64,000 nt of DNA from Escherichia coli 042 (GCF_000027125.1 NC_017626.1); one strand, 5' to 3'; positions 9,329 to 23,110 are shown, counted from the first letter of the stretch. Notes: a model not told the origin generated them from the letters alone. Translations and numbers: made by a program.

Positions 9329-10059
9329 TGAGTCGTTCAGTTCTGGTTACTGGTGCCAGCAAAGGCATTGGTCGCGCCATCGCCTGCCAACTGGCGGCAG
9401 ACGGCTTTAATATTGGCGTTCACTATCACCGTGACGCCACAGGCGCTCAGGAAACGCTAAATGCCATTGTCGCCAACGGGGGTAACGGGCGTTTGCTCAG
9501 TTTCGACGTCGCAAACCGCGAACAGTGTCGGGAAGTGCTGGAGCACGAAATCGCGCAAAACGGTGCCTGGTACGGCGTGGTTAGTAACGCCGGGATCGCC
9601 CGCGATGCCGCTTTTCCGGCTTTAAGCGATGACGACTGGGATGCGGTGATCCACACCAATCTCGACAGTTTCTACAACGTTATTCAGCCGTGCATTATGC
9701 CGATGATCGGCACACGCCAGGGTGGACGCATCATCACGCTGTCCTCGGTTTCCGGCGTGATGGGCAATCGCGGACAGGTGAACTACAGCGCTGCCAAAGC
9801 CGGAATTATCGGCGCAACAAAAGCACTGGCTATCGAACTCGCGAAGCGCAAAATCACCGTCAACTGCATCGCGCCGGGGCTTATTGATACCGGGATGATC
9901 GAAATGGAAGAGAGCGCCCTGAAAGAGGCAATGTCGATGATCCCCATGAAACGCATGGGCCAGGCGGAAGAAGTTGCCGGGCTTGCCAGCTATTTAATGT
10001 CTGATATTGCGGGTTACGTCACCCGCCAGGTTATTTCCATCAACGGAGGGATGTTATGA
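9328..10059 (+). CDS. apeQ: 3-oxoacyl-ACP reductase (FabG-like SDR)
   Basis: 243 aa; Rossmann motif VLVTGASKGIGRAIA, catalytic YSAAK, NAG motif. Confidence 0.85.
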   Translation: MSRSVLVTGASKGIGRAIACQLAADGFNIGVHYHRDATGAQETLNAIVANGGNGRLLSFDVANREQCREVLEHEIAQNGAWYGVVSNAGIARDAAFPALSDDDWDAVIHTNLDSFYNVIQPCIMPMIGTRQGGRIITLSSVSGVMGNRGQVNYSAAKAGIIGATKALAIELAKRKITVNCIAPGLIDTGMIEMEESALKEAMSMIPMKRMGQAEEVAGLASYLMSDIAGYVTRQVISINGGML

Positions 10060-14503: not shown

Positions 14504-17306
<2,803 letters not shown>

Positions 17307-17504
17307 CACCTCCCAACGCGCCGTTATTTCCTGACGGCGCAGTAGACTTCTGCCAAATATCGACTCACGTCACATTTTTTTGATCACGATTTAGTCCCCT
17401 AAAATGTGAGACGCTTCGATCCTCTTTTTCGCCTGTTCACCTACTATACGCTTGAAGTTGTCCATGATTGTCCATAGACAACTGTAAATGTTCAGGTGCG
17501 CGCC

Positions 17505-18251
17505 ATGAAATCATTGAGTAAGTCGTCACAAATACCGCTCTATCAACAAGTGGTGGAGTGGATAAGAGAAAATATTTATACCGGGGATCTGGTGGAAGAC
17601 GATCGCATTCCTTCGGAATACCAGATTATGGATATGCTGGAAGTGAGTCGGGGAACCGTTAAAAAAGCTGTCGCCCAACTGGTAAAACAAGGCGTGTTGA
17701 TTCAGGTCCAGGGGAAGGGAACATTTGTCAAAAAAGAGAACGTGGCATATCCGTTAGGTGAAGGATTATTGTCATTCGCGGAATCGCTGGAAAGCCAGAA
17801 AATACACTTTACCACTGAAGTTATTACGTCACGGATTGAACCGGCTAATCGTTATGTGGCAGAGAAATTAAGAATAACGCCCGGTCAGGATATTCTTTAC
17901 CTTGAGCGTTTACGTTCAATTGGTGATGAAAAAGCGATGCTGATAGAGAACCGTATCAATATTGAGCTATGCCCCGGCATCGTGGAAATCGATTTTAATC
18001 AACACAATTTATTTCCAACAATAGAAAGTTTGTCGAAAAGAAAAATTCGTTACTCGGAAAGTCGCTATGCCGCGCGATTAATTGGTAATGAACGCGGTCA
18101 TTTTTTAGATATCTGTGAAGATGCACCCGTTTTGCATCTGGAGCAATTAGTCTTTTTCTCCCGAGAGTTACCCGTTGAGTTTGGCAACGTCTGGTTAAAA
18201 GGAAATAAATATTATCTGGGCACCGTGCTGCAACGGCGGGAATTGAGTTAA
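17505..18251 (+). CDS. GntR-family transcriptional regulator (HTH + UTRA effector domain)
   Basis: ORF 17496-18251; HTH segment EYQIMDMLEVSRGTVKKAVAQLVKQGVL; precedes the PTS genes. Confidence 0.75.
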   Translation: MKSLSKSSQIPLYQQVVEWIRENIYTGDLVEDDRIPSEYQIMDMLEVSRGTVKKAVAQLVKQGVLIQVQGKGTFVKKENVAYPLGEGLLSFAESLESQKIHFTTEVITSRIEPANRYVAEKLRITPGQDILYLERLRSIGDEKAMLIENRINIELCPGIVEIDFNQHNLFPTIESLSKRKIRYSESRYAARLIGNERGHFLDICEDAPVLHLEQLVFFSRELPVEFGNVWLKGNKYYLGTVLQRRELS

Positions 18252-18275
18252 ATACACTTTTTTATGAGGAATAAA

Positions 18276-18749
18276 ATGCAAGGCATACAGTTTCAGGAAA
18301 ATTATATTCAACGACTTCCGGCAGGGTTAAGCGTTGAACAGATCATCCGTCAGTTAGCGCAACCGTTGGTTGCTGCTGAGCTGGTGGTCCCTGATTTTGC
18401 CGATCACGTACTGAAACGTGAGGCGACGTACCCAACGGGGCTGCCTACCGAACCACCGTGCGTCGCCATTCCGCACACGGACCATAAATATGTCAGGCAC
18501 AATGCAATTGCCGTCGGCATCCTTCCGGAACCGGTAGAGTTTGCCGATATGGGCGGCGATCCTGACCCCGTACATGTCAGGGTGATTTTTTTGCTCGCCT
18601 TAAGTGAAAGTAATAAACAATTAAATGCCCTGGGCTGGATTATGGAGATGATTCAGGATACGCCCTTTATGCGCGCCCTGCTTACGATGGAAACAACAGA
18701 AATACACACAGTAATCTTAAACAAAATGAAAGAACGAGGTGAAATATGA
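18276..18749 (+). CDS. PTS EIIA component (fructose/mannitol/galactitol type)
   Basis: ORF 18264-18749; ATG 18276 has a GAGGA RBS; phosphorylatable His context AIPHTDH. Confidence 0.75.
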   Translation: MQGIQFQENYIQRLPAGLSVEQIIRQLAQPLVAAELVVPDFADHVLKREATYPTGLPTEPPCVAIPHTDHKYVRHNAIAVGILPEPVEFADMGGDPDPVHVRVIFLLALSESNKQLNALGWIMEMIQDTPFMRALLTMETTEIHTVILNKMKERGEI

Positions 18750-19027
18750 GTCAAACCATTTTATTTGTCTGCGCCACGGGTATAGCCACATCCACGGCGG
18801 TAACAGAAAAAGTCATGGAATATTGTAAAGAGCACGGTCTTAACGTCAATTATTCCCAAACCAACGTTGCCTCTTTACCTGGAAATACTGACGGCGTAGC
18901 ACTGGTAGTCTCAACGACTAAAGTGCCTTATGAACTCGACGTCCCGGTGGTTAACGGCTTGCCGATTATTACCGGTATTGGCGAAGAGAAAGTACTGGCG
19001 CAAATTGTTTCGATCCTTAAAAAGTAA
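18746..19027 (+). CDS. PTS EIIB component (galactitol type, Cys-phosphorylated)
   Basis: 93 aa; N-terminal ILFVCATGIATS motif typical of GatB-like EIIB. Confidence 0.8.
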   Translation: MSQTILFVCATGIATSTAVTEKVMEYCKEHGLNVNYSQTNVASLPGNTDGVALVVSTTKVPYELDVPVVNGLPIITGIGEEKVLAQIVSILKK

Positions 19028-19103
19028 TTAATAATAATTAATTTCAACCCACTCCATCAGGCGCTAACGCGAGGTGCGCTCTCGCCTGAAAAAGAGGTTT
19101 ATT

Positions 19104-20462
19104 ATGAACGATATCGCGCATACCCTCTATAATATTGTGCAATATATATTGGGATTTGGTCCCACGGTAATGTTGCCGTTGGTGTTATTTATTCTTGCTC
19201 TCTTTTTTAAAGTAAAACCCGCTAAAGCCTTACGTTCGTCATTAACGGTCGGCATTGGTTTTGTCGGTATTTATGCCATTTTCGATATTCTTACCAGCAA
19301 TGTCGGGCCAGCGGCCCAGGCGATGGTTGAACGCACCGGAATTAATTTACCGGTGGTGGATTTAGGCTGGCCGCCGCTTTCCGCTATTACATGGGGTTCG
19401 CCAATTGCCCCGTTTGTTATTCCCCTGACTATTCTGATTAACGTGGCGATGCTGGCGTTAAATAAAACCCGCACCGTTGACGTAGATATGTGGAACTACT
19501 GGCATTTTGCCCTTGCCGGTACGCTGGTTTATTACAGCACCGGCAGCCTGTTCTTTGGTTTGCTGGCAGCGGCGATTGCTGCGGTGGTAGTACTTAAACT
19601 CGCCGACTGGTCTGCGCCACTGGTACAAAAATACTTTGGCCTGGAAGGGATCTCTTTGCCGACGCTCTCTTCGGTGGTGTTCTTTCCGGTCGGTCTGTTG
19701 GTCGACAAAATCATCGACCATATCCCCGGCCTCAATCGTATTCATATCGATCCGGAAACCGTACAGAAAAAGTTTGGCATATTCGGCGAACCGATGATGG
19801 TTGGTACTATTCTGGGCATTCTGCTCGGCGTAATTGCCGGATACGATTTCAAAAAAGTCTTGCTGCTTGGCATCAGCATTGGCGGTGTGATGTTCATCCT
19901 GCCACGCATGGTTCGCATTCTGATGGAAGGTTTATTACCGCTGTCTGAAGCCATTAAAAAGTATCTCAATGCCAAATACCCTGACCGTGACGATCTCTAT
20001 ATCGGCCTGGATATCGCCGTTGCCGTAGGTAACCCAGCGATTATCTCCACCGCCCTGCTGCTGACGCCAATCTCGGTCTTTATCGCGTTTGTCCTTCCGG
20101 GTAATGAAGTCCTGCCGCTTGGCGACCTTGCCAACCTGGCGGTAATGGCGTCGATGATTGCTTTAGCCAGCCGTGGCAACATTTTCCGCACCGTTCTGGC
20201 GGCGATTCCGGTGATTATTGCCGATCTGTGGATTGCGACTAAAATCGCGCCGTTTATTACCGGAATGGCGAAAGACGTTAATTTCAAATTTGCCGAAGGC
20301 TCCAGCGGCCAGGTCTCCAGTTTCCTTGATGGCGGTAACCCGTTCCGCTTCTGGCTGCTGGAAATCTTCAACGGCAATCTCATCGCCATTGGTCTGGTGC
20401 CGGTTATCGCCCTGGTACTGTATGGTATTTTCCGAATGACGCGGAGCACGGTTTATGCCTGA
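19104..20462 (+). CDS. PTS EIIC permease (galactitol/GatC-like)
   Basis: ORF 19074-20462; ATG 19104 preceded by AAGAGG RBS; polytopic membrane protein. Confidence 0.8.
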   Translation: MNDIAHTLYNIVQYILGFGPTVMLPLVLFILALFFKVKPAKALRSSLTVGIGFVGIYAIFDILTSNVGPAAQAMVERTGINLPVVDLGWPPLSAITWGSPIAPFVIPLTILINVAMLALNKTRTVDVDMWNYWHFALAGTLVYYSTGSLFFGLLAAAIAAVVVLKLADWSAPLVQKYFGLEGISLPTLSSVVFFPVGLLVDKIIDHIPGLNRIHIDPETVQKKFGIFGEPMMVGTILGILLGVIAGYDFKKVLLLGISIGGVMFILPRMVRILMEGLLPLSEAIKKYLNAKYPDRDDLYIGLDIAVAVGNPAIISTALLLTPISVFIAFVLPGNEVLPLGDLANLAVMASMIALASRGNIFRTVLAAIPVIIADLWIATKIAPFITGMAKDVNFKFAEGSSGQVSSFLDGGNPFRFWLLEIFNGNLIAIGLVPVIALVLYGIFRMTRSTVYA

Positions 20463-21963
20463 TAACAGCGCAGCTATCGTTATCGATATTGGCACCACCA
20501 ATTGCAAAGTCACCTGCTTTTCCTGCCTGGACGCAACGACGTTGGGCGCGCATAAATTCGTGACGGCAAAACAGATCTCCCCACAGGGCAATGTCGATTT
20601 CGATATCGACGCCCTCTGGCAGGAGGTCCGCCAGGCGATAGCGCAACTGAACGCCGCTTCGCCGCTGCCAGTCAGGCGGATAAGCATTGCCAGTTTTGGC
20701 GAGTCAGGCGTGTTCCTTGACGAGCATGGCGAGATCCTGACGCCAATGCTGGCATGGTATGACCGTCGCGGTGAAGAGTATCTGGCTACACTTAGCGAGG
20801 CAGACAGTGCGGCACTTTATGACATTTGCGGGTTACCGCTGCACAGCAATTACTCTGCCTTCAAAATGCGTTGGTTGCTGGAACATTACCCACTGCGTAA
20901 TCGCCGCGGCCTGCGTTGGCTACATGCGCCGGAAGTACTGCTCTGGCGGCTGACCGGCGAACAGCGCACGGATATCACCTTAGCCAGCCGCACGCTGTGT
21001 CTTGACGTGCGCAAAGGCGAATGGTCAGCGAAAGCGGCGGCGTTGTTACACGTTCCCTGTTCAGCATTTGCGCCATTGGTGCAGCCAGGCGAACACGCCG
21101 GATGGGTCAGCGAGTCGCTCTGCAAAACGCTTGGGTTCTCGCAACCGGTCAGCGTGACGCTGGCCGGACATGACCATATGGTGGGTGCGCGAGCGTTGCA
21201 GATGATGCCGGGCGATATCCTTAACTCGACGGGGACCACAGAAGGCATTCTGCAACTGGATACACAACCGACGCTGGATGAACAGGCCAAACGTGACAAG
21301 CTGGCAAACGGCTGTTATTCGCTTGCAAACCAGTTCACCCTGTTTGCGTCGCTGCCCGTGGGCGGTTTCGCTCTGGAGTGGCTGCGTAACACGTTCCGGC
21401 TAACCGATGAGGAGATCGCCGCATCACTTACTCGCGGACATGCGGATTACCTGGCGGGGAACTGGTCGCTCGATGACATTCCCCTCTTTATTCCACATCT
21501 TCGCGGTTCGGGTTCGCCCTATAAAAATCGCCATACTCGTGGATTATTTTATGGGCTTGGCGATACGTTAAATATCGACATGTTAATTGCCAGCGTCTCA
21601 CTGGGATTAACCATGGAATTTGCCAACTGCTTCGCCTGTTTTAATGTGCCTGGCACCAGCGCGTTAAAAGTGATAGGTCCGGCAACCCAAAATCCCCTTT
21701 GGCTGCAATTAAAAGCGGATATTTTACAGCGTCCGGTTGAAGCAATTGCATTTAACGAGGCGGTTTCTGTCGGAGCATTATTAACTGCCGCACCGGATAT
21801 TCCACCGCCGCAAGTTACCATAGCCCAACGTTTGTTACCGAATCGGGCGAGATACCATCAATTACAGCGTTATCAGCACAAATGGAAAAGCTGGTATCAG
21901 TTGAAATTACAGCAAGAAGGCGTGATGCCATTACACCATCGGGAGGAGCACTATGTTGAGTAA
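20455..21963 (+). CDS. FGGY-family carbohydrate kinase (xylulokinase-like)
   Basis: 502 aa; N-terminal AIVIDIGTTNCKV ATPase motif of FGGY kinases; overlaps EIIC stop. Confidence 0.75.
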   Translation: MPDNSAAIVIDIGTTNCKVTCFSCLDATTLGAHKFVTAKQISPQGNVDFDIDALWQEVRQAIAQLNAASPLPVRRISIASFGESGVFLDEHGEILTPMLAWYDRRGEEYLATLSEADSAALYDICGLPLHSNYSAFKMRWLLEHYPLRNRRGLRWLHAPEVLLWRLTGEQRTDITLASRTLCLDVRKGEWSAKAAALLHVPCSAFAPLVQPGEHAGWVSESLCKTLGFSQPVSVTLAGHDHMVGARALQMMPGDILNSTGTTEGILQLDTQPTLDEQAKRDKLANGCYSLANQFTLFASLPVGGFALEWLRNTFRLTDEEIAASLTRGHADYLAGNWSLDDIPLFIPHLRGSGSPYKNRHTRGLFYGLGDTLNIDMLIASVSLGLTMEFANCFACFNVPGTSALKVIGPATQNPLWLQLKADILQRPVEAIAFNEAVSVGALLTAAPDIPPPQVTIAQRLLPNRARYHQLQRYQHKWKSWYQLKLQQEGVMPLHHREEHYVE

Positions 21964-22222
21964 AACCGTGGAGGTCAGAAACAGTACTGGCCTGCATGCA
22001 CGTCCGGCGGCGTGTCTGGTGAAAGCCGCCAAAAAGTTTAGCTGTAAAGTGACGCTGCATTATGAGGGTAATGATATTAATGCCACCAGCATGATGAATA
22101 TTATGCGCGCCGGAATAAAAGGCGGCAAAACGGTGGAAATACGCTGCGAAGGCGATGATGAAAATGAGGCAATACAAACTCTCACCGCCTTATTTCGTGA
22201 TCGCTTCGGTGAAGCTGAATAA
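21953..22222 (+). CDS. HPr-like phosphocarrier protein paralog
   Basis: 89 aa; GLHARPAA motif containing the phosphorylatable His of HPr-family proteins. Confidence 0.75.
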   Translation: MLSKTVEVRNSTGLHARPAACLVKAAKKFSCKVTLHYEGNDINATSMMNIMRAGIKGGKTVEIRCEGDDENEAIQTLTALFRDRFGEAE

Positions 22223-22252
22223 TTAACTGATATTAAAAGATGAGGTTTTCAA

Positions 22253-23104
22253 ATGCCATTAGTTAATGGACGGATACTGCTCGACCGCATTCAGGAAAAA
22301 CGGGTATTAGCGGGCGCGTTTAATACCACCAATCTGGAGACGACGATTTCAATTTTAAACGCCATTGAGCGTTCAGGATTACCCAACTTCATTCAGATTG
22401 CGCCCACCAATGCACAACTCTCGGGATACGATTACATTTATGAAATCGTGAAACGTCACGCCGATAAAATGGATGTTCCGGTCAGTCTTCATCTGGATCA
22501 CGGGAAAACTCAGGAGGATGTTAAACAGGCGGTGCGCGCGGGCTTTACCTCGGTCATGATTGACGGTGCCGCATTATCTTTTGAAGAGAATATCGCTTTC
22601 ACCCAGGAAGCTGTCGATTTCTGTAAATCCTATGGCGTACCGGTTGAAGCGGAGCTGGGGGCGATTCTCGGCAAAGAAGATGATCACGTCAGCGAAGCCG
22701 ATTGCAAAACGGAACCGGAAAAGGTGAAGACCTTTGTCGAGCGCACCGGTTGCGACATGCTGGCAGTTTCTATTGGCAACGTTCATGGCCTGGACGATAT
22801 ACCGCGTATCGATATCCCCCTGCTGAAGCGCATTGCCGAAGTCTGCCCGGTGCCGCTGGTTATTCACGGCGGCTCCGGTATCGCCCCGGAAATATTACGC
22901 AGCTTTGTTAATTATCGCGTCGCTAAAGTAAATATCGCCAGCGATCTGCGCAAAGCGTTTATCACCGCCGTCGGCAAAGCGTATGTGAATAATCACAACG
23001 AGGCGAATCTGGCACGAGTGATGGCATCAGCAAAAAACGCCGTCGAGGAAGATGTGTATAGCAAAATCCTGATGATGAATGAGGGGCATCGGTTGGTTAA
23101 GTAA
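22253..23104 (+). CDS. Class II ketose-bisphosphate aldolase (GatY/KbaY/fructose-bisphosphate aldolase family)
   Basis: 283 aa; HLDHG zinc-binding motif, family-typical length. Confidence 0.8.
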   Translation: MPLVNGRILLDRIQEKRVLAGAFNTTNLETTISILNAIERSGLPNFIQIAPTNAQLSGYDYIYEIVKRHADKMDVPVSLHLDHGKTQEDVKQAVRAGFTSVMIDGAALSFEENIAFTQEAVDFCKSYGVPVEAELGAILGKEDDHVSEADCKTEPEKVKTFVERTGCDMLAVSIGNVHGLDDIPRIDIPLLKRIAEVCPVPLVIHGGSGIAPEILRSFVNYRVAKVNIASDLRKAFITAVGKAYVNNHNEANLARVMASAKNAVEEDVYSKILMMNEGHRLVK

Positions 23105-23110
23105 ATCTTC

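What the first reader, a model, noticed from the sequence alone, without database searches (positions are those of the whole stretch)
17330..23110. Accessory galactitol-like PTS island with its own kinase, HPr paralog and class II aldolase at the K-12 rhsB position
Between nikR and yhhJ, where K-12 carries the rhsB element, this window instead has a GntR/UTRA regulator, EIIA, EIIB (CATGIATS Cys motif), GatC-like EIIC, an FGGY kinase, an HPr-like protein and a GatY/KbaY-like aldolase. A PTS combined with an ATP-dependent FGGY kinase is unusual, because a PTS already delivers a phosphorylated sugar. It implies either a second phosphorylation to a bisphosphate that the aldolase then cleaves, or a non-phosphorylated second substrate. 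The substrate is not deducible from sequence.
Basis: partly seen in the sequence, partly recalled or inferred. Interest (0 to 1): 0.5.

Follow-up and report, generated by a model that had tools for sequence, protein, structure and literature searches.

The report
Uncharacterised sugar PTS–kinase–aldolase operon
Between nikR and yhhJ this E. coli carries an intact seven-gene operon for importing and splitting a still unidentified sugar; the same unit occurs in about 30% of E. coli, in Salmonella and in distant bacteria, and gene-neighbourhood comparison suggests the sugar is phosphorylated twice.

Summary
Window 17305-23109 replaces the K-12 rhsB-yhhH-yrhC-yhhI segment. It holds seven intact, co-oriented genes: a GntR/HutC regulator, EIIA, EIIB, a Gat-family EIIC, an FGGY kinase, an HPr paralog and a class II aldolase.

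It is not the gat operon. Identity to GatA/B/C/Y is 24-44%, and there is no GatD or GatZ. No paper in the searchable library assigns a substrate. The Salmonella ortholog STM3779-3785 is called an island for an unknown carbohydrate.

All seven genes are under purifying selection (dN/dS 0.01-0.16 against O157 Sakai).

The main new result comes from 80 species-level loci. In 65, the kinase sits next to a Gat-type EIIC. In 13 actinobacterial loci without a PTS, it sits next to the same aldolase plus a second, XylB-like FGGY kinase. No locus has both and no complete locus has neither. So the PTS phosphorylation and a second kinase appear interchangeable, which implies two phosphorylations per sugar.

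The best reading is ketose, then ketose phosphate, then ketose bisphosphate, then two triose phosphates. Cleaving first and then phosphorylating the aldehyde is not excluded. A promoter conserved across 16 genera has CRP-like sites and a HutC-type operator. The substrate remains unknown. This is a new variant of a known kind, of moderate interest.

The parts
17305..23109 (+). Whole strain-variable segment, bounded by the end of nikR on the left and by the sequence upstream of the yhhJ 3' end that is shared with K-12 on the right.
   Evidence: blastn against K-12 L006: homology ends at 17304 and resumes at 23110. G+C falls to 0.42-0.47 in the 5' third, against about 0.55 in the flanks.
17359..17374 (.). 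CRP-like site 1 (ATCGACTCACGTCACA). The TCACA half-site is conserved. Its centre is about -87 from the inferred transcription start.
   Evidence: Inverted repeat with 17401-17420. TCAC is nearly invariant across 16 genera. Its function is inferred, not shown.
17405..17420 (.). CRP-like site 2 (TGTGAGACGCTTCGAT). AAAnTGTGA is invariant. The centre at 17412.5 is about -41.5 from the inferred transcription start, which is class II geometry.
   Evidence: Invariant columns A36-A38 and G41-A44 of alignment A2; coordinates. Assigning the site to CRP is an inference from the consensus TGTGA-N6-TCACA.
17442..17447 (+). Candidate -10 hexamer (TACTAT; TATcAT in most orthologs).
   Evidence: Conserved TAtnATA block in A2. 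The generic promoter scan did not list it, so this is an inference.
17456..17483 (.). Candidate operator for the GntR/HutC-type regulator: AGTTGTCCATGATTGTCCATAGACAACT. It consists of overlapping palindromes, including TTGTC(C/T)ATAGACAA.
   Evidence: Arms are 91% complementary. It is almost invariant in 16 genera whose kinases are only 61-80% identical, while the surrounding sequence varies. It is the only match in the 64 kb window.
17505..18251 (+). GntR-family (HutC subfamily, UTRA effector domain) transcriptional regulator, 248 aa.
   Evidence: NCBIfam hits to HutC-subfamily members PhnF, TreR and HutC, all below their cut-offs. The Salmonella ortholog carries PF00392 and PF07702. The ATG at 17505 is conserved and is the RefSeq start.
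18276..18749 (+). PTS EIIA (PTS_EIIA_2 type), 157 aa.
   Evidence: NCBIfam hit to galactitol IIA, 54.5 bits against a cut-off of 139. 24% identical to GatA. The ortholog carries PF00359.
18746..19027 (+). PTS EIIB, 93 aa, with Cys9 in VCATGIATS. It overlaps the end of EIIA by 4 nt.
   Evidence: NCBIfam hit to galactitol IIB, 60.2 bits against a cut-off of 95. 37% identical to GatB over the full length. Sequence read.
19104..20462 (+). PTS EIIC of the galactitol (Gat) family, 452 aa.
   Evidence: TIGR00827 EIIC-GAT, 475.6 bits against a cut-off of 542. 44% identical to the readable part of K-12 GatC. 72-77% identical to the EIIC of Enterococcus, Listeria, Pectinatus and Selenomonas cassettes.
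20455..21963 (+). FGGY-family carbohydrate kinase, 502 aa, of a distinct subfamily. Its start overlaps the EIIC stop by 8 nt.
   Evidence: Below the cut-off of every NCBIfam equivalog: XylB 146.8/380, GlpK 129/590, FucK 120.6/471. Catalytic and ATP-binding positions align with E. coli GlpK: D10, E84, W103, D245, G266-T267 and G411. dN/dS is 0.056.
21953..22222 (+). HPr-family phosphocarrier paralog, 89 aa. Its start overlaps the kinase stop by 11 nt.
   Evidence: TIGR01003, 105.9 bits against a cut-off of 47.9. His15 motif GLHARPA. Present in the enterobacterial and some Bacillus cassettes, absent from most Firmicute ones.
22253..23104 (+). Class II (zinc, TIM-barrel) ketose-phosphate aldolase of the PRK07998 family, 283 aa.
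   Evidence: NF005943 PRK07998, 556.7 bits against a cut-off of 364. GatY, KbaY and FBA models all score below their cut-offs. 37% identical to GatY. Residues equivalent to AgaY D82, H83, E142, H180, H208, K228 and N230 are invariant in 77 family members.
23141..23195 (.). Inverted repeat between the convergent aldolase and yhhJ genes, shared with K-12. Probably the terminator region.
   Evidence: Arms 23141-23161 and 23175-23195. The sequence is present in K-12 L006 around 9620-9680.

Best explanation
The segment is a single, self-contained catabolic operon for an unidentified ketose, most plausibly a ketohexose of the tagatose, psicose or sorbose kind.

Proposed steps:
1. Phosphoryl groups pass from the dedicated HPr paralog to EIIA, then to Cys9 of EIIB.
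2. The Gat-family EIIC imports the sugar, and it is phosphorylated at one terminal hydroxyl during uptake.
3. The FGGY kinase is translationally coupled to EIIC. It uses ATP to phosphorylate the other end, giving a ketose 1,omega-bisphosphate.
4. The zinc-dependent class II aldolase cleaves this into dihydroxyacetone phosphate and a second triose phosphate, both of which enter glycolysis directly.

Transcription starts upstream of the regulator gene. The promoter has CRP-like sites and is shut by the HutC-type repressor at a palindromic operator until a pathway intermediate accumulates.

Shown here: the gene content, their intactness and purifying selection, conservation of the module, the mutual exclusivity of PTS and second kinase, and conservation of the promoter motifs.

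Inferred: that the kinase acts on the PTS product, which hydroxyl each step targets, that CRP and the repressor bind the conserved motifs, and the identity of the sugar.
For: 1. The module is conserved. Among 80 loci from different species that encode this kinase subfamily, 77 of the 78 on complete contigs have the PRK07998-type aldolase within 7 kb. Of these, 65 have a Gat-type EIIC, and in the ORF maps that EIIC lies immediately upstream of the kinase in nearly all of them.
2. The displacement test is clean. None of the 65 PTS loci has a second FGGY kinase. All 13 PTS-less actinobacterial loci have an ABC or MFS transporter, the aldolase, this kinase and a second kinase that is XylB-like (TIGR01312, 317 bits; cut-off 380). 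No complete locus has neither a PTS nor a second kinase. So the PTS phosphorylation can be replaced by a transporter plus a kinase, which means two phosphorylations per sugar.
3. No isomerase, dehydrogenase or hydrolase is present in the E. coli, Salmonella, Enterococcus or Listeria version. The imported compound must therefore already be a ketose that the aldolase can use after phosphorylation.
4. Sister variants add Zn-dependent alcohol dehydrogenases, which would make a polyol version of the same route analogous to GatD in the gat pathway.
5. The kinase keeps the FGGY catalytic base and ATP-binding positions. The aldolase keeps all zinc and catalytic residues.
6. All seven genes show dN/dS of 0.01-0.16.
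7. The genes are expressed in gut material. Z4875-Z4877 and Z4879 are up-regulated in bovine rumen, small-intestine and rectum contents relative to M9-glucose (PMC6199705). STM3780-85 is induced in a permissive chicken caecal community (PMC11000858).
8. The promoter is conserved across 16 genera.
9. PRK07998-family aldolases also pair with other PTS types plus one FGGY kinase: a glucitol-type PTS with a TIM paralog (L096), and a mannose-type PTS (L037).
Against: - To my knowledge, no FGGY-family enzyme is known to accept a phosphorylated sugar.
- Two canonical ligands of the distal phosphate in class IIb aldolases are not kept. AgaY T50 is Ala in 71 of 77 family members. AgaY R257 aligns with Ala, Ile or Val, with Arg or Lys at the next position in only 56 of 77.
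- The kinase and EIIA are the fastest-evolving parts. Between E. coli and the Firmicute cassettes the kinase is 36-40% identical, against 72-77% for EIIC and 49-69% for the aldolase. This is unexplained.
- The displacement pattern proves two phosphorylations but not their order relative to cleavage.
- There are no growth, enzymatic or effector-binding data.
- Induction in gut contents relative to glucose medium could be mere relief of catabolite repression.
Confidence: 0.5

Rival explanations
1. Cleave first, phosphorylate second. The PTS delivers a ketose 1-phosphate. The class II aldolase cleaves this monophosphate to DHAP plus a free aldehyde such as glyceraldehyde. The FGGY kinase, acting like a glycerol kinase or triokinase, phosphorylates that product. 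This resembles the mammalian fructose 1-phosphate route.
For: - It also needs exactly two phosphorylations, so it fits the exclusivity of PTS and second kinase.
- The family profile matches glycerol kinases about as well as anything in the PDB (about 171 bits). The Glu84, Trp103 and Asp245 equivalents of GlpK are kept.
- The canonical distal-phosphate ligands of class IIb aldolases are not conserved in this aldolase family.
- From established knowledge, the PF01116 family does include monophosphate-cleaving members, YdjI and IolJ. YdjI appears among the PDB hits at 147.7 bits.
Against: - GlpK Arg83 and Tyr135, which bind glycerol, are replaced by an invariant Gly and Asn.
- In nearly all PTS loci the kinase gene follows EIIC directly, and in this window the two overlap, whereas the position of the aldolase gene varies. 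This fits a kinase that acts on the transporter's product.
- A kinase for one universal small product would be expected to be well conserved, yet it is among the least conserved components.
- Free glyceraldehyde is a reactive intermediate for which bacteria rarely have dedicated kinases (established knowledge).
Confidence: 0.2
2. The kinase serves a second, non-PTS substrate. A free sugar that enters by another route, or is released inside the cell, is phosphorylated by the FGGY kinase. It joins the PTS-derived sugar phosphate at a common intermediate.
For: - All characterised FGGY kinases act on unphosphorylated sugars or polyols (established knowledge).
- In Actinobacteria the kinase works alongside non-phosphorylating ABC or MFS transporters.
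Against: - A monophosphate made by either enzyme alone would not be a substrate for bisphosphate-type cleavage.
- No enzyme is encoded that could merge two entry routes.
- Every PTS-less locus needs a second kinase, and no PTS locus has one. Two independent entry routes would not predict this.
- EIIC and kinase adjacency holds in nearly all PTS loci.
Confidence: 0.12
3. It is simply an ortholog of an already characterised galactitol, D-tagatose or L-sorbose operon, so the substrate can be assigned by orthology.
For: - RefSeq names EIIC 'PTS galactitol transporter subunit IIC', and some records call the kinase L-fuculokinase or the aldolase gatY.
- Family-level similarity to GatABC and GatY is real.
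Against: - Identity to K-12 GatA, GatB, GatC and GatY is only 24, 37, 44 and 37%.
- All equivalog models for GatA, GatB, GatY, KbaY, FBA, XylB, FucK and GlpK score below their curated cut-offs.
- There is no GatD and no GatZ.
- From established knowledge, the characterised tagatose routes use PfkB or PfkA kinases. The E. coli Nissle tag cluster uses an ABC transporter and lies at another locus (PMC9720028).
- Papers that mention the Salmonella ortholog call its substrate unknown (PMC3604774 from 2013; PMC11000858 from 2024).
Confidence: 0.05
4. It is a decaying or silent remnant with no current function.
For: The Salmonella ortholog is reported to be repressed by H-NS (PMC3604774). No phenotype is known.
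Against: - All seven reading frames are intact.
- dN/dS is 0.01-0.16, with dS like that of the flanking core genes.
- 1635 of 1637 E. coli copies cover at least 80% of the segment.
- Transcripts are induced in gut contents.
Confidence: 0.02

Closest known systems
Salmonella enterica STM3779-STM3785 (and E. coli O157 ECs4349-4355 / Z4874-Z4880)
   Same: Orthologous cassette with the same seven gene families. Protein identity to the window genes is 44% (HPr) to 90% (aldolase), with the kinase at 63%. The O157 copy is the same locus at 96.6% nucleotide identity.
   Different: In Salmonella it lies next to uhpT rather than nikR, and the order of the aldolase and HPr genes is swapped. It is itself uncharacterised: 'complete PTS with unknown specificity' (PMC3604774) and 'unknown sugars' (PMC11000858).
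E. coli galactitol pathway, gatYZABCD (GatABC PTS, GatD, PfkA, GatYZ)
   Same: Same PTS family. Same overall logic: a PTS phosphate, then a second phosphorylation to a ketohexose 1,6-bisphosphate, then class II aldolase cleavage. The variants of this module that carry a dehydrogenase mirror the GatD step.
   Different: Only 24-44% identity. There is no GatD or GatZ. The module has its own kinase, of the FGGY family, where the gat pathway relies on housekeeping PfkA. It also has its own HPr, and a GntR/HutC rather than a DeoR-type regulator.
D-tagatose PTS pathway of Klebsiella oxytoca, Salmonella (STM3253-5) and Bacillus licheniformis; fructose FruBKA (from established knowledge)
   Same: A ketose is taken up by a PTS, phosphorylated a second time by a dedicated ATP-dependent kinase encoded in the operon, and cleaved by a class II aldolase. 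FruB also provides a dedicated HPr-like domain.
   Different: Those systems use fructose-family EII and PfkB-family 1-phosphate kinases (TagK, FruK). Here the EII is Gat-family and the kinase is FGGY. The regiochemistry is unknown.
E. coli Nissle / B2 phylogroup tag cluster (PMC9720028)
   Same: A strain-variable E. coli cluster that routes a rare ketohexose through a 1,6-bisphosphate to a class II aldolase.
   Different: It uses an ABC transporter, a tagatose kinase and host PfkA. It lies at the accC/yhdT locus and is mostly found in B2 and F strains. It shares no genes with this island.
Monophosphate-cleaving PF01116 aldolases YdjI and IolJ (from established knowledge; YdjI structure 6OFU)
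   Same: Same fold and zinc site. They show that the family is not restricted to bisphosphates, which keeps the cleave-first rival alive.
   Different: Their substrates carry a distal carboxylate or are deoxy-keto acids, and their operons encode PfkB or other kinases and no PTS. The PDB sequence search scored YdjI at 147.7 bits, below AgaY at 165.4.

Membership tests
PTS galactitol (Gat) family, EIIA/EIIB/EIIC as separate proteins | An EIIC with the EIIC-GAT domain | tested here: met
   TIGR00827, 475.6 bits, E 1e-142, covering the full length. This is below the subfamily cut-off of 542. The orthologs carry PF03611. The protein is 44% identical to GatC.
PTS galactitol (Gat) family, EIIA/EIIB/EIIC as separate proteins | An EIIB with an N-terminal phosphorylatable Cys, and a PTS_EIIA_2-type EIIA | tested here: met
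   Cys9 in VCATGIATS aligns end to end with GatB. The EIIA matches the galactitol and fructose IIA models and contains the IPH motif. Phosphotransfer itself cannot be tested here.
Galactitol operon (gat) orthology, i.e. galactitol as substrate | Equivalog-level similarity to GatA, GatB and GatY | tested here: not met
   GatA model 54.5 bits against 139, GatB 60.2 against 95, GatY 239.8 against 383. Identities are 24-44%.
Galactitol operon (gat) orthology, i.e. galactitol as substrate | Presence of galactitol-1-phosphate dehydrogenase GatD and the GatZ subunit | tested here: not met
   There is no dehydrogenase gene and no GatZ-like gene between nikR and yhhJ.
FGGY carbohydrate kinase family | Two FGGY domains, with the catalytic Asp and the phosphate- and adenosine-binding motifs | tested here: met
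   PF00370 and PF02782 are recorded for all listed homologs. D11, E83, W101, D240, G260-T261 and G408 align with GlpK D10, E84, W103, D245, G266-T267 and G411. These positions are invariant in 18 family members.
Named FGGY specificities (xylulokinase, glycerol kinase, L-fuculokinase, rhamnulokinase, gluconokinase, ribulokinase, AI-2 kinase) | A score above the curated equivalog cut-off | tested here: not met
   The best scores are XylB 146.8 against 380, GlpK 129 against 590 and FucK 120.6 against 471, the last covering the N-terminal part only. The 'L-fuculokinase' label in some records is not supported.
Class II (metal-dependent) fructose/tagatose-bisphosphate aldolase family, PF01116 | A TIM-barrel aldolase with three His zinc ligands and the catalytic Asp and Glu | tested here: met
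   The equivalents of AgaY D82, H83, E142, H180, H208, K228 and N230 are invariant in 77 family members. TIGR00167 ketose-bisphosphate aldolase scores 220.9 against a cut-off of 215.6.
Class II (metal-dependent) fructose/tagatose-bisphosphate aldolase family, PF01116 | The canonical distal (C6) phosphate ligands of class IIb enzymes, AgaY T50 and R257 | tested here: inconclusive
   T50 is Ala in 71 of 77 members. R257 aligns to Ala, Ile or Val, but the next residue is Arg or Lys in 56 of 77, and the loop alignment could be off by one position.
NCBIfam PRK07998 'class II aldolase' (no substrate assigned) | A score above the equivalog cut-off | tested here: met
   556.7 bits against a cut-off of 364. 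Aldolases in the Enterococcus Gut-PTS and Man-PTS clusters also pass, at 442.8 and 426.9 bits.
HPr phosphocarrier family | An HPr fold with the His15 phosphorylation site | tested here: met
   TIGR01003 scores 105.9 against 47.9. The protein scores below the cut-offs for E. coli PtsH and for NPr. The GLHARPA motif is present.
GntR family, HutC subfamily repressors | An N-terminal winged helix plus a C-terminal UTRA effector domain, with a palindromic operator near its own promoter | tested here: met
   The ortholog carries PF00392 and PF07702. NCBIfam hits are to PhnF, TreR and HutC. The conserved palindrome TTGTC(C/T)ATAGACAA lies 24 nt upstream of the ATG in 16 genera. Binding was not tested.

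The most novel reading that the evidence does not exclude
The kinase defines an FGGY subfamily whose natural substrate is a sugar phosphate, that is, a ketose-phosphate kinase that makes a ketose 1,omega-bisphosphate. As far as I know this reaction type has not been described for the FGGY family.

Together with the PRK07998 aldolase it would form a previously undescribed and widely distributed catabolic route for a gut-available rare ketose, and for its polyols in the sister variants. The route is fixed in Salmonella enterica subspecies I and present in about 30% of E. coli, including O157:H7.
Probability: 0.4. Interest if true: 0.65.

Novelty: new variant of a known kind. Interest (0 to 1): 0.5.

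Why it matters
- About 30% of complete E. coli genomes carry this intact, selected operon, including O157:H7. According to PMC3604774, so does the whole of Salmonella enterica subspecies I. Its nutrient is unknown.
- It is switched on in bovine and chicken gut material (PMC6199705, PMC11000858), so it may define a nutrient niche relevant to colonisation and to competition between strains.
- Identifying the sugar would fill a gap in strain-specific metabolic models.
- If the kinase does act on a sugar phosphate, this would extend the known chemistry of the FGGY family.
- The census gives a concrete, testable rule: a PTS plus one FGGY kinase is equivalent to a transporter plus two FGGY kinases.
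- It also provides a ready set of orthologs and of variants with a dehydrogenase for substrate screening.

Tried and rejected
1. Literature. No substrate assignment was found. The only mentions were transcriptomic, or descriptions as an 'unknown carbohydrate'. The FGGY/tagatose hit on sulfoglycolysis was irrelevant.
2. Solved structures. There is no close relative of the kinase (best about 90 bits, glycerol kinases) or of the aldolase (best about 165 bits, AgaY and Thermus FBA).
3. The dehydrogenase in the variants. I tried to decide whether the one next to the kinase is GatD-like, meaning that it acts on a polyol phosphate. It scores equally with threonine and scyllo-inosose dehydrogenases, so this is undecided. 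A second dehydrogenase in Pantoea is closer to GatD, at 238 bits.
4. The aldolase's distal-phosphate ligands. I tried to use them to choose between bisphosphate and monophosphate cleavage. The result was inconclusive.
5. The XylB-like kinases. I tried to argue a consistent role for those in the Enterococcus and the actinobacterial clusters. They are only 22% identical, so the argument was dropped.
6. The palindrome TTGTCNNNNGACAA alone is not statistically remarkable in the window: 1 match found against 1.6 expected with one mismatch allowed. Its significance rests on cross-genus conservation.
7. The generic promoter and terminator scan gave counts no higher than shuffled controls.
8. Rfam gave no hit on either strand.
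9. EDL933 accession NC_002655.2 is not in the collection.
10. Structure prediction was not run. The tools return no coordinates, so the binding pockets could not have been inspected.

Full report
**1. Is it there?**

Yes. Seven co-oriented ORFs lie between nikR (stop at 17306) and the convergent yhhJ (23195-24319, minus strand):
- regulator, 17505-18251
- EIIA, 18276-18749
- EIIB, 18746-19027
- EIIC, 19104-20462
- FGGY kinase, 20455-21963
- HPr, 21953-22222
- aldolase, 22253-23104

Three gene pairs overlap: EIIA/EIIB by 4 nt, EIIC/kinase by 8 nt and kinase/HPr by 11 nt. The largest gap is 76 nt, so the anatomy is that of one operon.

The Cys motif VCATGIATS and the HPr His15 motif are present.

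blastn against K-12 fixes the borders at 17304/17305 and 23109/23110. K-12 has rhsB-yhhH-yrhC'-yhhI in that interval. G+C falls to 0.42-0.47 in the 5' third of the segment, against about 0.55 in the flanks.

**2. How common and how old is it?**

- The segment is in 1637 of 5426 complete E. coli genomes, always chromosomal, at 95-100% identity.
- The nikR-island junction is in 1634 genomes and the K-12-type nikR-rhsB junction in 2113. The remaining genomes, about 1680, have some third state.
- O157:H7 Sakai carries it as ECs4349-4355, with a hicAB pair added downstream.
- Against Sakai, every gene has dN/dS of 0.01-0.16 (kinase 0.056). dS is 0.06-0.20, like the flanking nikE and nikR at 0.145-0.17.
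- Escherichia whittamii and Citrobacter amalonaticus have the cassette between the same flanking genes.

So the genes are functional. The segment has been at this locus for as long as the strains have diverged. 'Accessory' is right, but 'recent' is not.

**3. Is it a known operon?**

No.
- Identity to K-12 GatA, GatB, GatC and GatY is 24, 37, 44 and 37%.
- All equivalog models (GatA, GatB, GatY, KbaY, FBA, XylB, GlpK, FucK) score below their curated cut-offs. Only the unnamed aldolase family PRK07998 (556.7 against 364) and the generic HPr family pass.
- There is no GatD and no GatZ.
- No close solved structure exists.

The Salmonella ortholog (kinase 63%, EIIC 89%, aldolase 90% identical) is STM3779-3785. 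It is described as:
- an AT-rich, H-NS-repressed island gained by subspecies I, encoding 'a complete PTS with unknown specificity' (PMC3604774);
- activated by ArcA (PMC3075218);
- still listed under 'unknown sugars' in 2024, and induced in a permissive chicken caecal community (PMC11000858).

In EDL933, Z4875-77 and Z4879 are up-regulated in bovine rumen, small-intestine and rectum contents relative to M9-glucose (PMC6199705).

The E. coli Nissle D-tagatose cluster is a different, ABC-based cluster at another locus. That study showed K-12, B and W strains to be Tag-minus but did not test carriers of this island (PMC9720028).

**4. The module is conserved far beyond E. coli**

Kinase homologs fall into two groups: enterobacterial orthologs at 61-98% identity, and a broad set at 32-40% in Firmicutes, other Enterobacterales and Actinobacteria.

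ORF clustering was run on 80 loci from GTDB species genomes plus the loci fetched earlier (92 in all). Co-location with the kinase was as follows:

| Partner | Loci |
|---|---|
| aldolase | 77 |
| EIIC | 75 |
| EIIA | 72 |
| EIIB | 69 |
| GntR regulator | 69 |
| HPr | 37 |
| Zn-dependent alcohol dehydrogenase | 33 |

Three architectures recur:
- (i) Minimal: regulator, aldolase, EIIA, EIIB, EIIC and kinase. Found in Escherichia, Citrobacter, Salmonella, Klebsiella oxytoca, Cedecea, Rahnella, Enterococcus, Listeria immobilis, Selenomonas, Pectinatus and lactobacilli.
- (ii) The same plus one to three Zn-dependent dehydrogenases, often with a SurE or histidine phosphatase. Found in Pantoea, Erwinia, Raoultella, Enterobacter, Serratia, Gilliamella, Bacillus and Staphylococcus pseudoxylosus.
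- (iii) Actinobacteria, with no PTS at all.

**5. The displacement test**

A tblastn census that does not depend on gene calling classified the 80 species loci as follows:

| Class | Loci |
|---|---|
| Gat-type EIIC within 7 kb of the kinase | 65 |
| of these, with the aldolase | 64 |
| of these, with a second FGGY kinase | 0 |
| No EIIC (all actinobacterial) | 13 |
| of these, with the aldolase and a second, XylB-like FGGY kinase | 13 |
| Truncated contigs, uninformative | 2 |

GC3-guided gene calls show the order aldolase, then this kinase, then the XylB-like kinase in 8 of those 13 loci. In three others the same three genes are adjacent in a different order. The tblastn census finds both partners in all 13. 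These loci also carry a GntR regulator and a ribose-type ABC, polyol-type ABC or MFS transporter. The second kinase scores 317 bits on TIGR01312, below the cut-off of 380.

So wherever uptake does not phosphorylate, a second kinase is present, and wherever a PTS is present it is absent. This is the strongest evidence obtained. It argues against the idea that the kinase serves an independent second substrate.

**6. What the test does not settle**

Two orders are compatible with the census:
- (A) PTS phosphate, then kinase, then bisphosphate, then cleavage.
- (B) PTS phosphate, then cleavage of the monophosphate, then phosphorylation of the free aldehyde.

For A:
- The kinase gene follows EIIC directly in nearly all PTS loci, and the two overlap in this window. 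The position of the aldolase gene varies.
- GlpK's glycerol ligands Arg83 and Tyr135 are replaced by an invariant Gly and Asn.
- The actinobacterial partner is XylB-like. By homology it should be a distal-hydroxyl kinase of a 2-ketose, whose product would need a phosphate at C1 before a DHAP-type aldolase could cleave it (inference).
- The polyol variants parallel the gat pathway, in which the dehydrogenase yields a ketose 6-phosphate (established knowledge).

For B:
- No FGGY enzyme is known to take a phosphosugar.
- The family profile matches glycerol kinases about as well as anything in the PDB.
- The class IIb distal-phosphate ligands are not kept. AgaY T50 is Ala. AgaY R257 is Ala, Ile or Val, with Arg or Lys at the next position in 73% of members.

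I put A at about 0.5 and B at about 0.2.

**7. Catalytic competence**

- The kinase aligns with E. coli GlpK at D10, E84, W103, D245 (the catalytic base, in the family motif GHDH), G266-T267 and G411.
- Its adenosine motif is IG(P/A)(A/V)xxN rather than GGG, which is a hallmark of this family.
- The aldolase keeps the equivalents of D82, H83, E142, H180, H208, K228 and N230 in all 77 members examined.

**8. Regulation**

The 140 nt upstream of the regulator gene contain blocks that are almost invariant in 16 genera, while the rest of the region varies:
- TCACA at 17370-17374 and AAAnTGTGA at 17401-17409. Each is the good half of a CRP-like site, ATCGA-N6-TCACA (17359-17374) and TGTGA-N6-TCGAT (17405-17420). 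The two sites form an inverted repeat.
- A TAtnAT -10 box at 17442-17447.
- The 28-bp element AGTTGTCCATGATTGTCCATAGACAACT at 17456-17483. It contains the HutC-type palindrome TTGTC(C/T)ATAGACAA.
- A conserved Shine-Dalgarno sequence and the ATG at 17505.

With a transcription start near 17454, the proximal CRP-like site is centred at -41.5 (class II geometry) and the operator covers +3 to +30. Binding is inferred, not shown.

This architecture predicts catabolite repression plus inducer-dependent de-repression. The gut-content induction measured against glucose medium may therefore partly reflect relief of catabolite repression.

**9. Substrate**

The minimal cassette has no isomerase, dehydrogenase or hydrolase, so the imported compound must itself be a ketose.
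- Pentuloses and sedoheptulose would already be pentose-phosphate-pathway intermediates after one phosphorylation.
- Tetruloses cannot yield DHAP plus a second phosphorylated fragment, since only one carbon would remain.
- Fructose has its own routes.

A D-ketohexose such as tagatose, psicose or sorbose therefore fits best, yielding DHAP and glyceraldehyde 3-phosphate. The dehydrogenase variants would take the corresponding hexitols. This is inference only. Salmonella already has a separate tagatose locus (STM3253-5), which argues mildly against tagatose.

EIIC is 72-77% identical between E. coli and the Firmicute minimal cassettes, but only 55-61% identical to the dehydrogenase variants. This is consistent with one substrate for the minimal type and another for the polyol type.

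**10. Verdict**

- It is a new variant of a known kind: a ketose-bisphosphate-type PTS pathway in which an FGGY kinase takes the place of a PfkB or PfkA kinase. It has been noticed in the literature but is uncharacterised.
- Interest is moderate. It would be higher if the kinase proves to be a sugar-phosphate kinase, or if the nutrient turns out to matter for gut colonisation.

Noticed in passing
L007 29577-30208 (O157:H7 Sakai), corresponding to the gap after window 23104: O157 Sakai has a hicB-hicA toxin-antitoxin pair inserted between the aldolase gene and yhhJ. The window strain lacks it. The Sakai aldolase is also annotated 3 codons longer.
   Followed up: partly
E. coli genome collection, nikR 3' junction: Only 1634 genomes have the nikR-island junction and 2113 the K-12 nikR-rhsB junction. 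About 1680 of 5426 genomes must therefore carry a third, unexamined state at this site.
   Followed up: no
L096 3463-9834 (Enterococcus sp. AZ163): A PRK07998-family aldolase, 62% identical to the island's, sits with a glucitol-type PTS (EIIA-gut, EII-GUT, EIIBC-GUT, GutM), a XylB-like FGGY kinase (348 bits) and an archaeal-type triose-phosphate isomerase paralog. This is a different pairing of PTS family and FGGY kinase with the same aldolase.
   Followed up: partly
L037 10896-19104, also L038 and L039 (Enterococcus raffinosus, malodoratus and avium): Directly after the Gat-type cassette comes a second cluster. It has another PRK07998 aldolase, a PRD-type regulator, a mannose-type PTS (four components), a Zn-dependent dehydrogenase and a XylB-like FGGY kinase.
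   Followed up: partly
E. coli window versus L003, L009, L004, L032, L002: The kinase and EIIA evolve much faster than the rest of the cassette. E. coli versus Enterococcus: kinase 37%, EIIA 40%, EIIC 76%, aldolase 69%. E. coli versus Salmonella: kinase 63%, EIIC 89%, aldolase 90%. The HPr paralog is lower still between enterobacteria (40-46%). Unexplained.
   Followed up: no
L052 and L089 (Herbiconiux MAG, Schumannella): Two of the PTS-less actinobacterial loci also encode a SIS-domain protein resembling 6-phospho-3-hexuloisomerase (TIGR03127, 146 bits against a cut-off of 160). This hints at hexulose 6-phosphate intermediates.
   Followed up: no
L008 11687-12475; L010 10005-10643; L097 15148-15786: The cassettes that carry a dehydrogenase often include a phosphatase, either SurE-type or of the histidine-phosphatase family. 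Its role in a pathway that adds two phosphates is unclear.
   Followed up: no
window 17383-17387 and alignment A2 columns 16-20: A further nearly invariant TGATC block lies between the two CRP-like sites. Together with the upstream TCAC it reads ATCAC-N7-TGATC. No regulator is assigned.
   Followed up: no
window about 19058-19088 (EIIB-EIIC spacer): The only sizeable intergenic gap in the operon (76 nt) contains a G+C-rich inverted repeat, CAGGCG...CGCCTG. It could be an mRNA processing or stability element, or an attenuator.
   Followed up: no
window 23111-23127: A REP-like sequence (GCCGGATGCGGCGTAAA) lies exactly at the right-hand border of the variable segment. K-12 has a related but different REP-like sequence at the same point.
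   Followed up: no
L016-L031 versus window: Gene order after the kinase differs between lineages: kinase-HPr-aldolase in Escherichia and C. amalonaticus, but kinase-aldolase-HPr in Salmonella, Klebsiella oxytoca, Cedecea, Rahnella and others. In Enterobacter cancerogenus and Pantoea sp. alder81 (kinase 70% identical), the aldolase sits before EIIA, as in Firmicutes.
   Followed up: no
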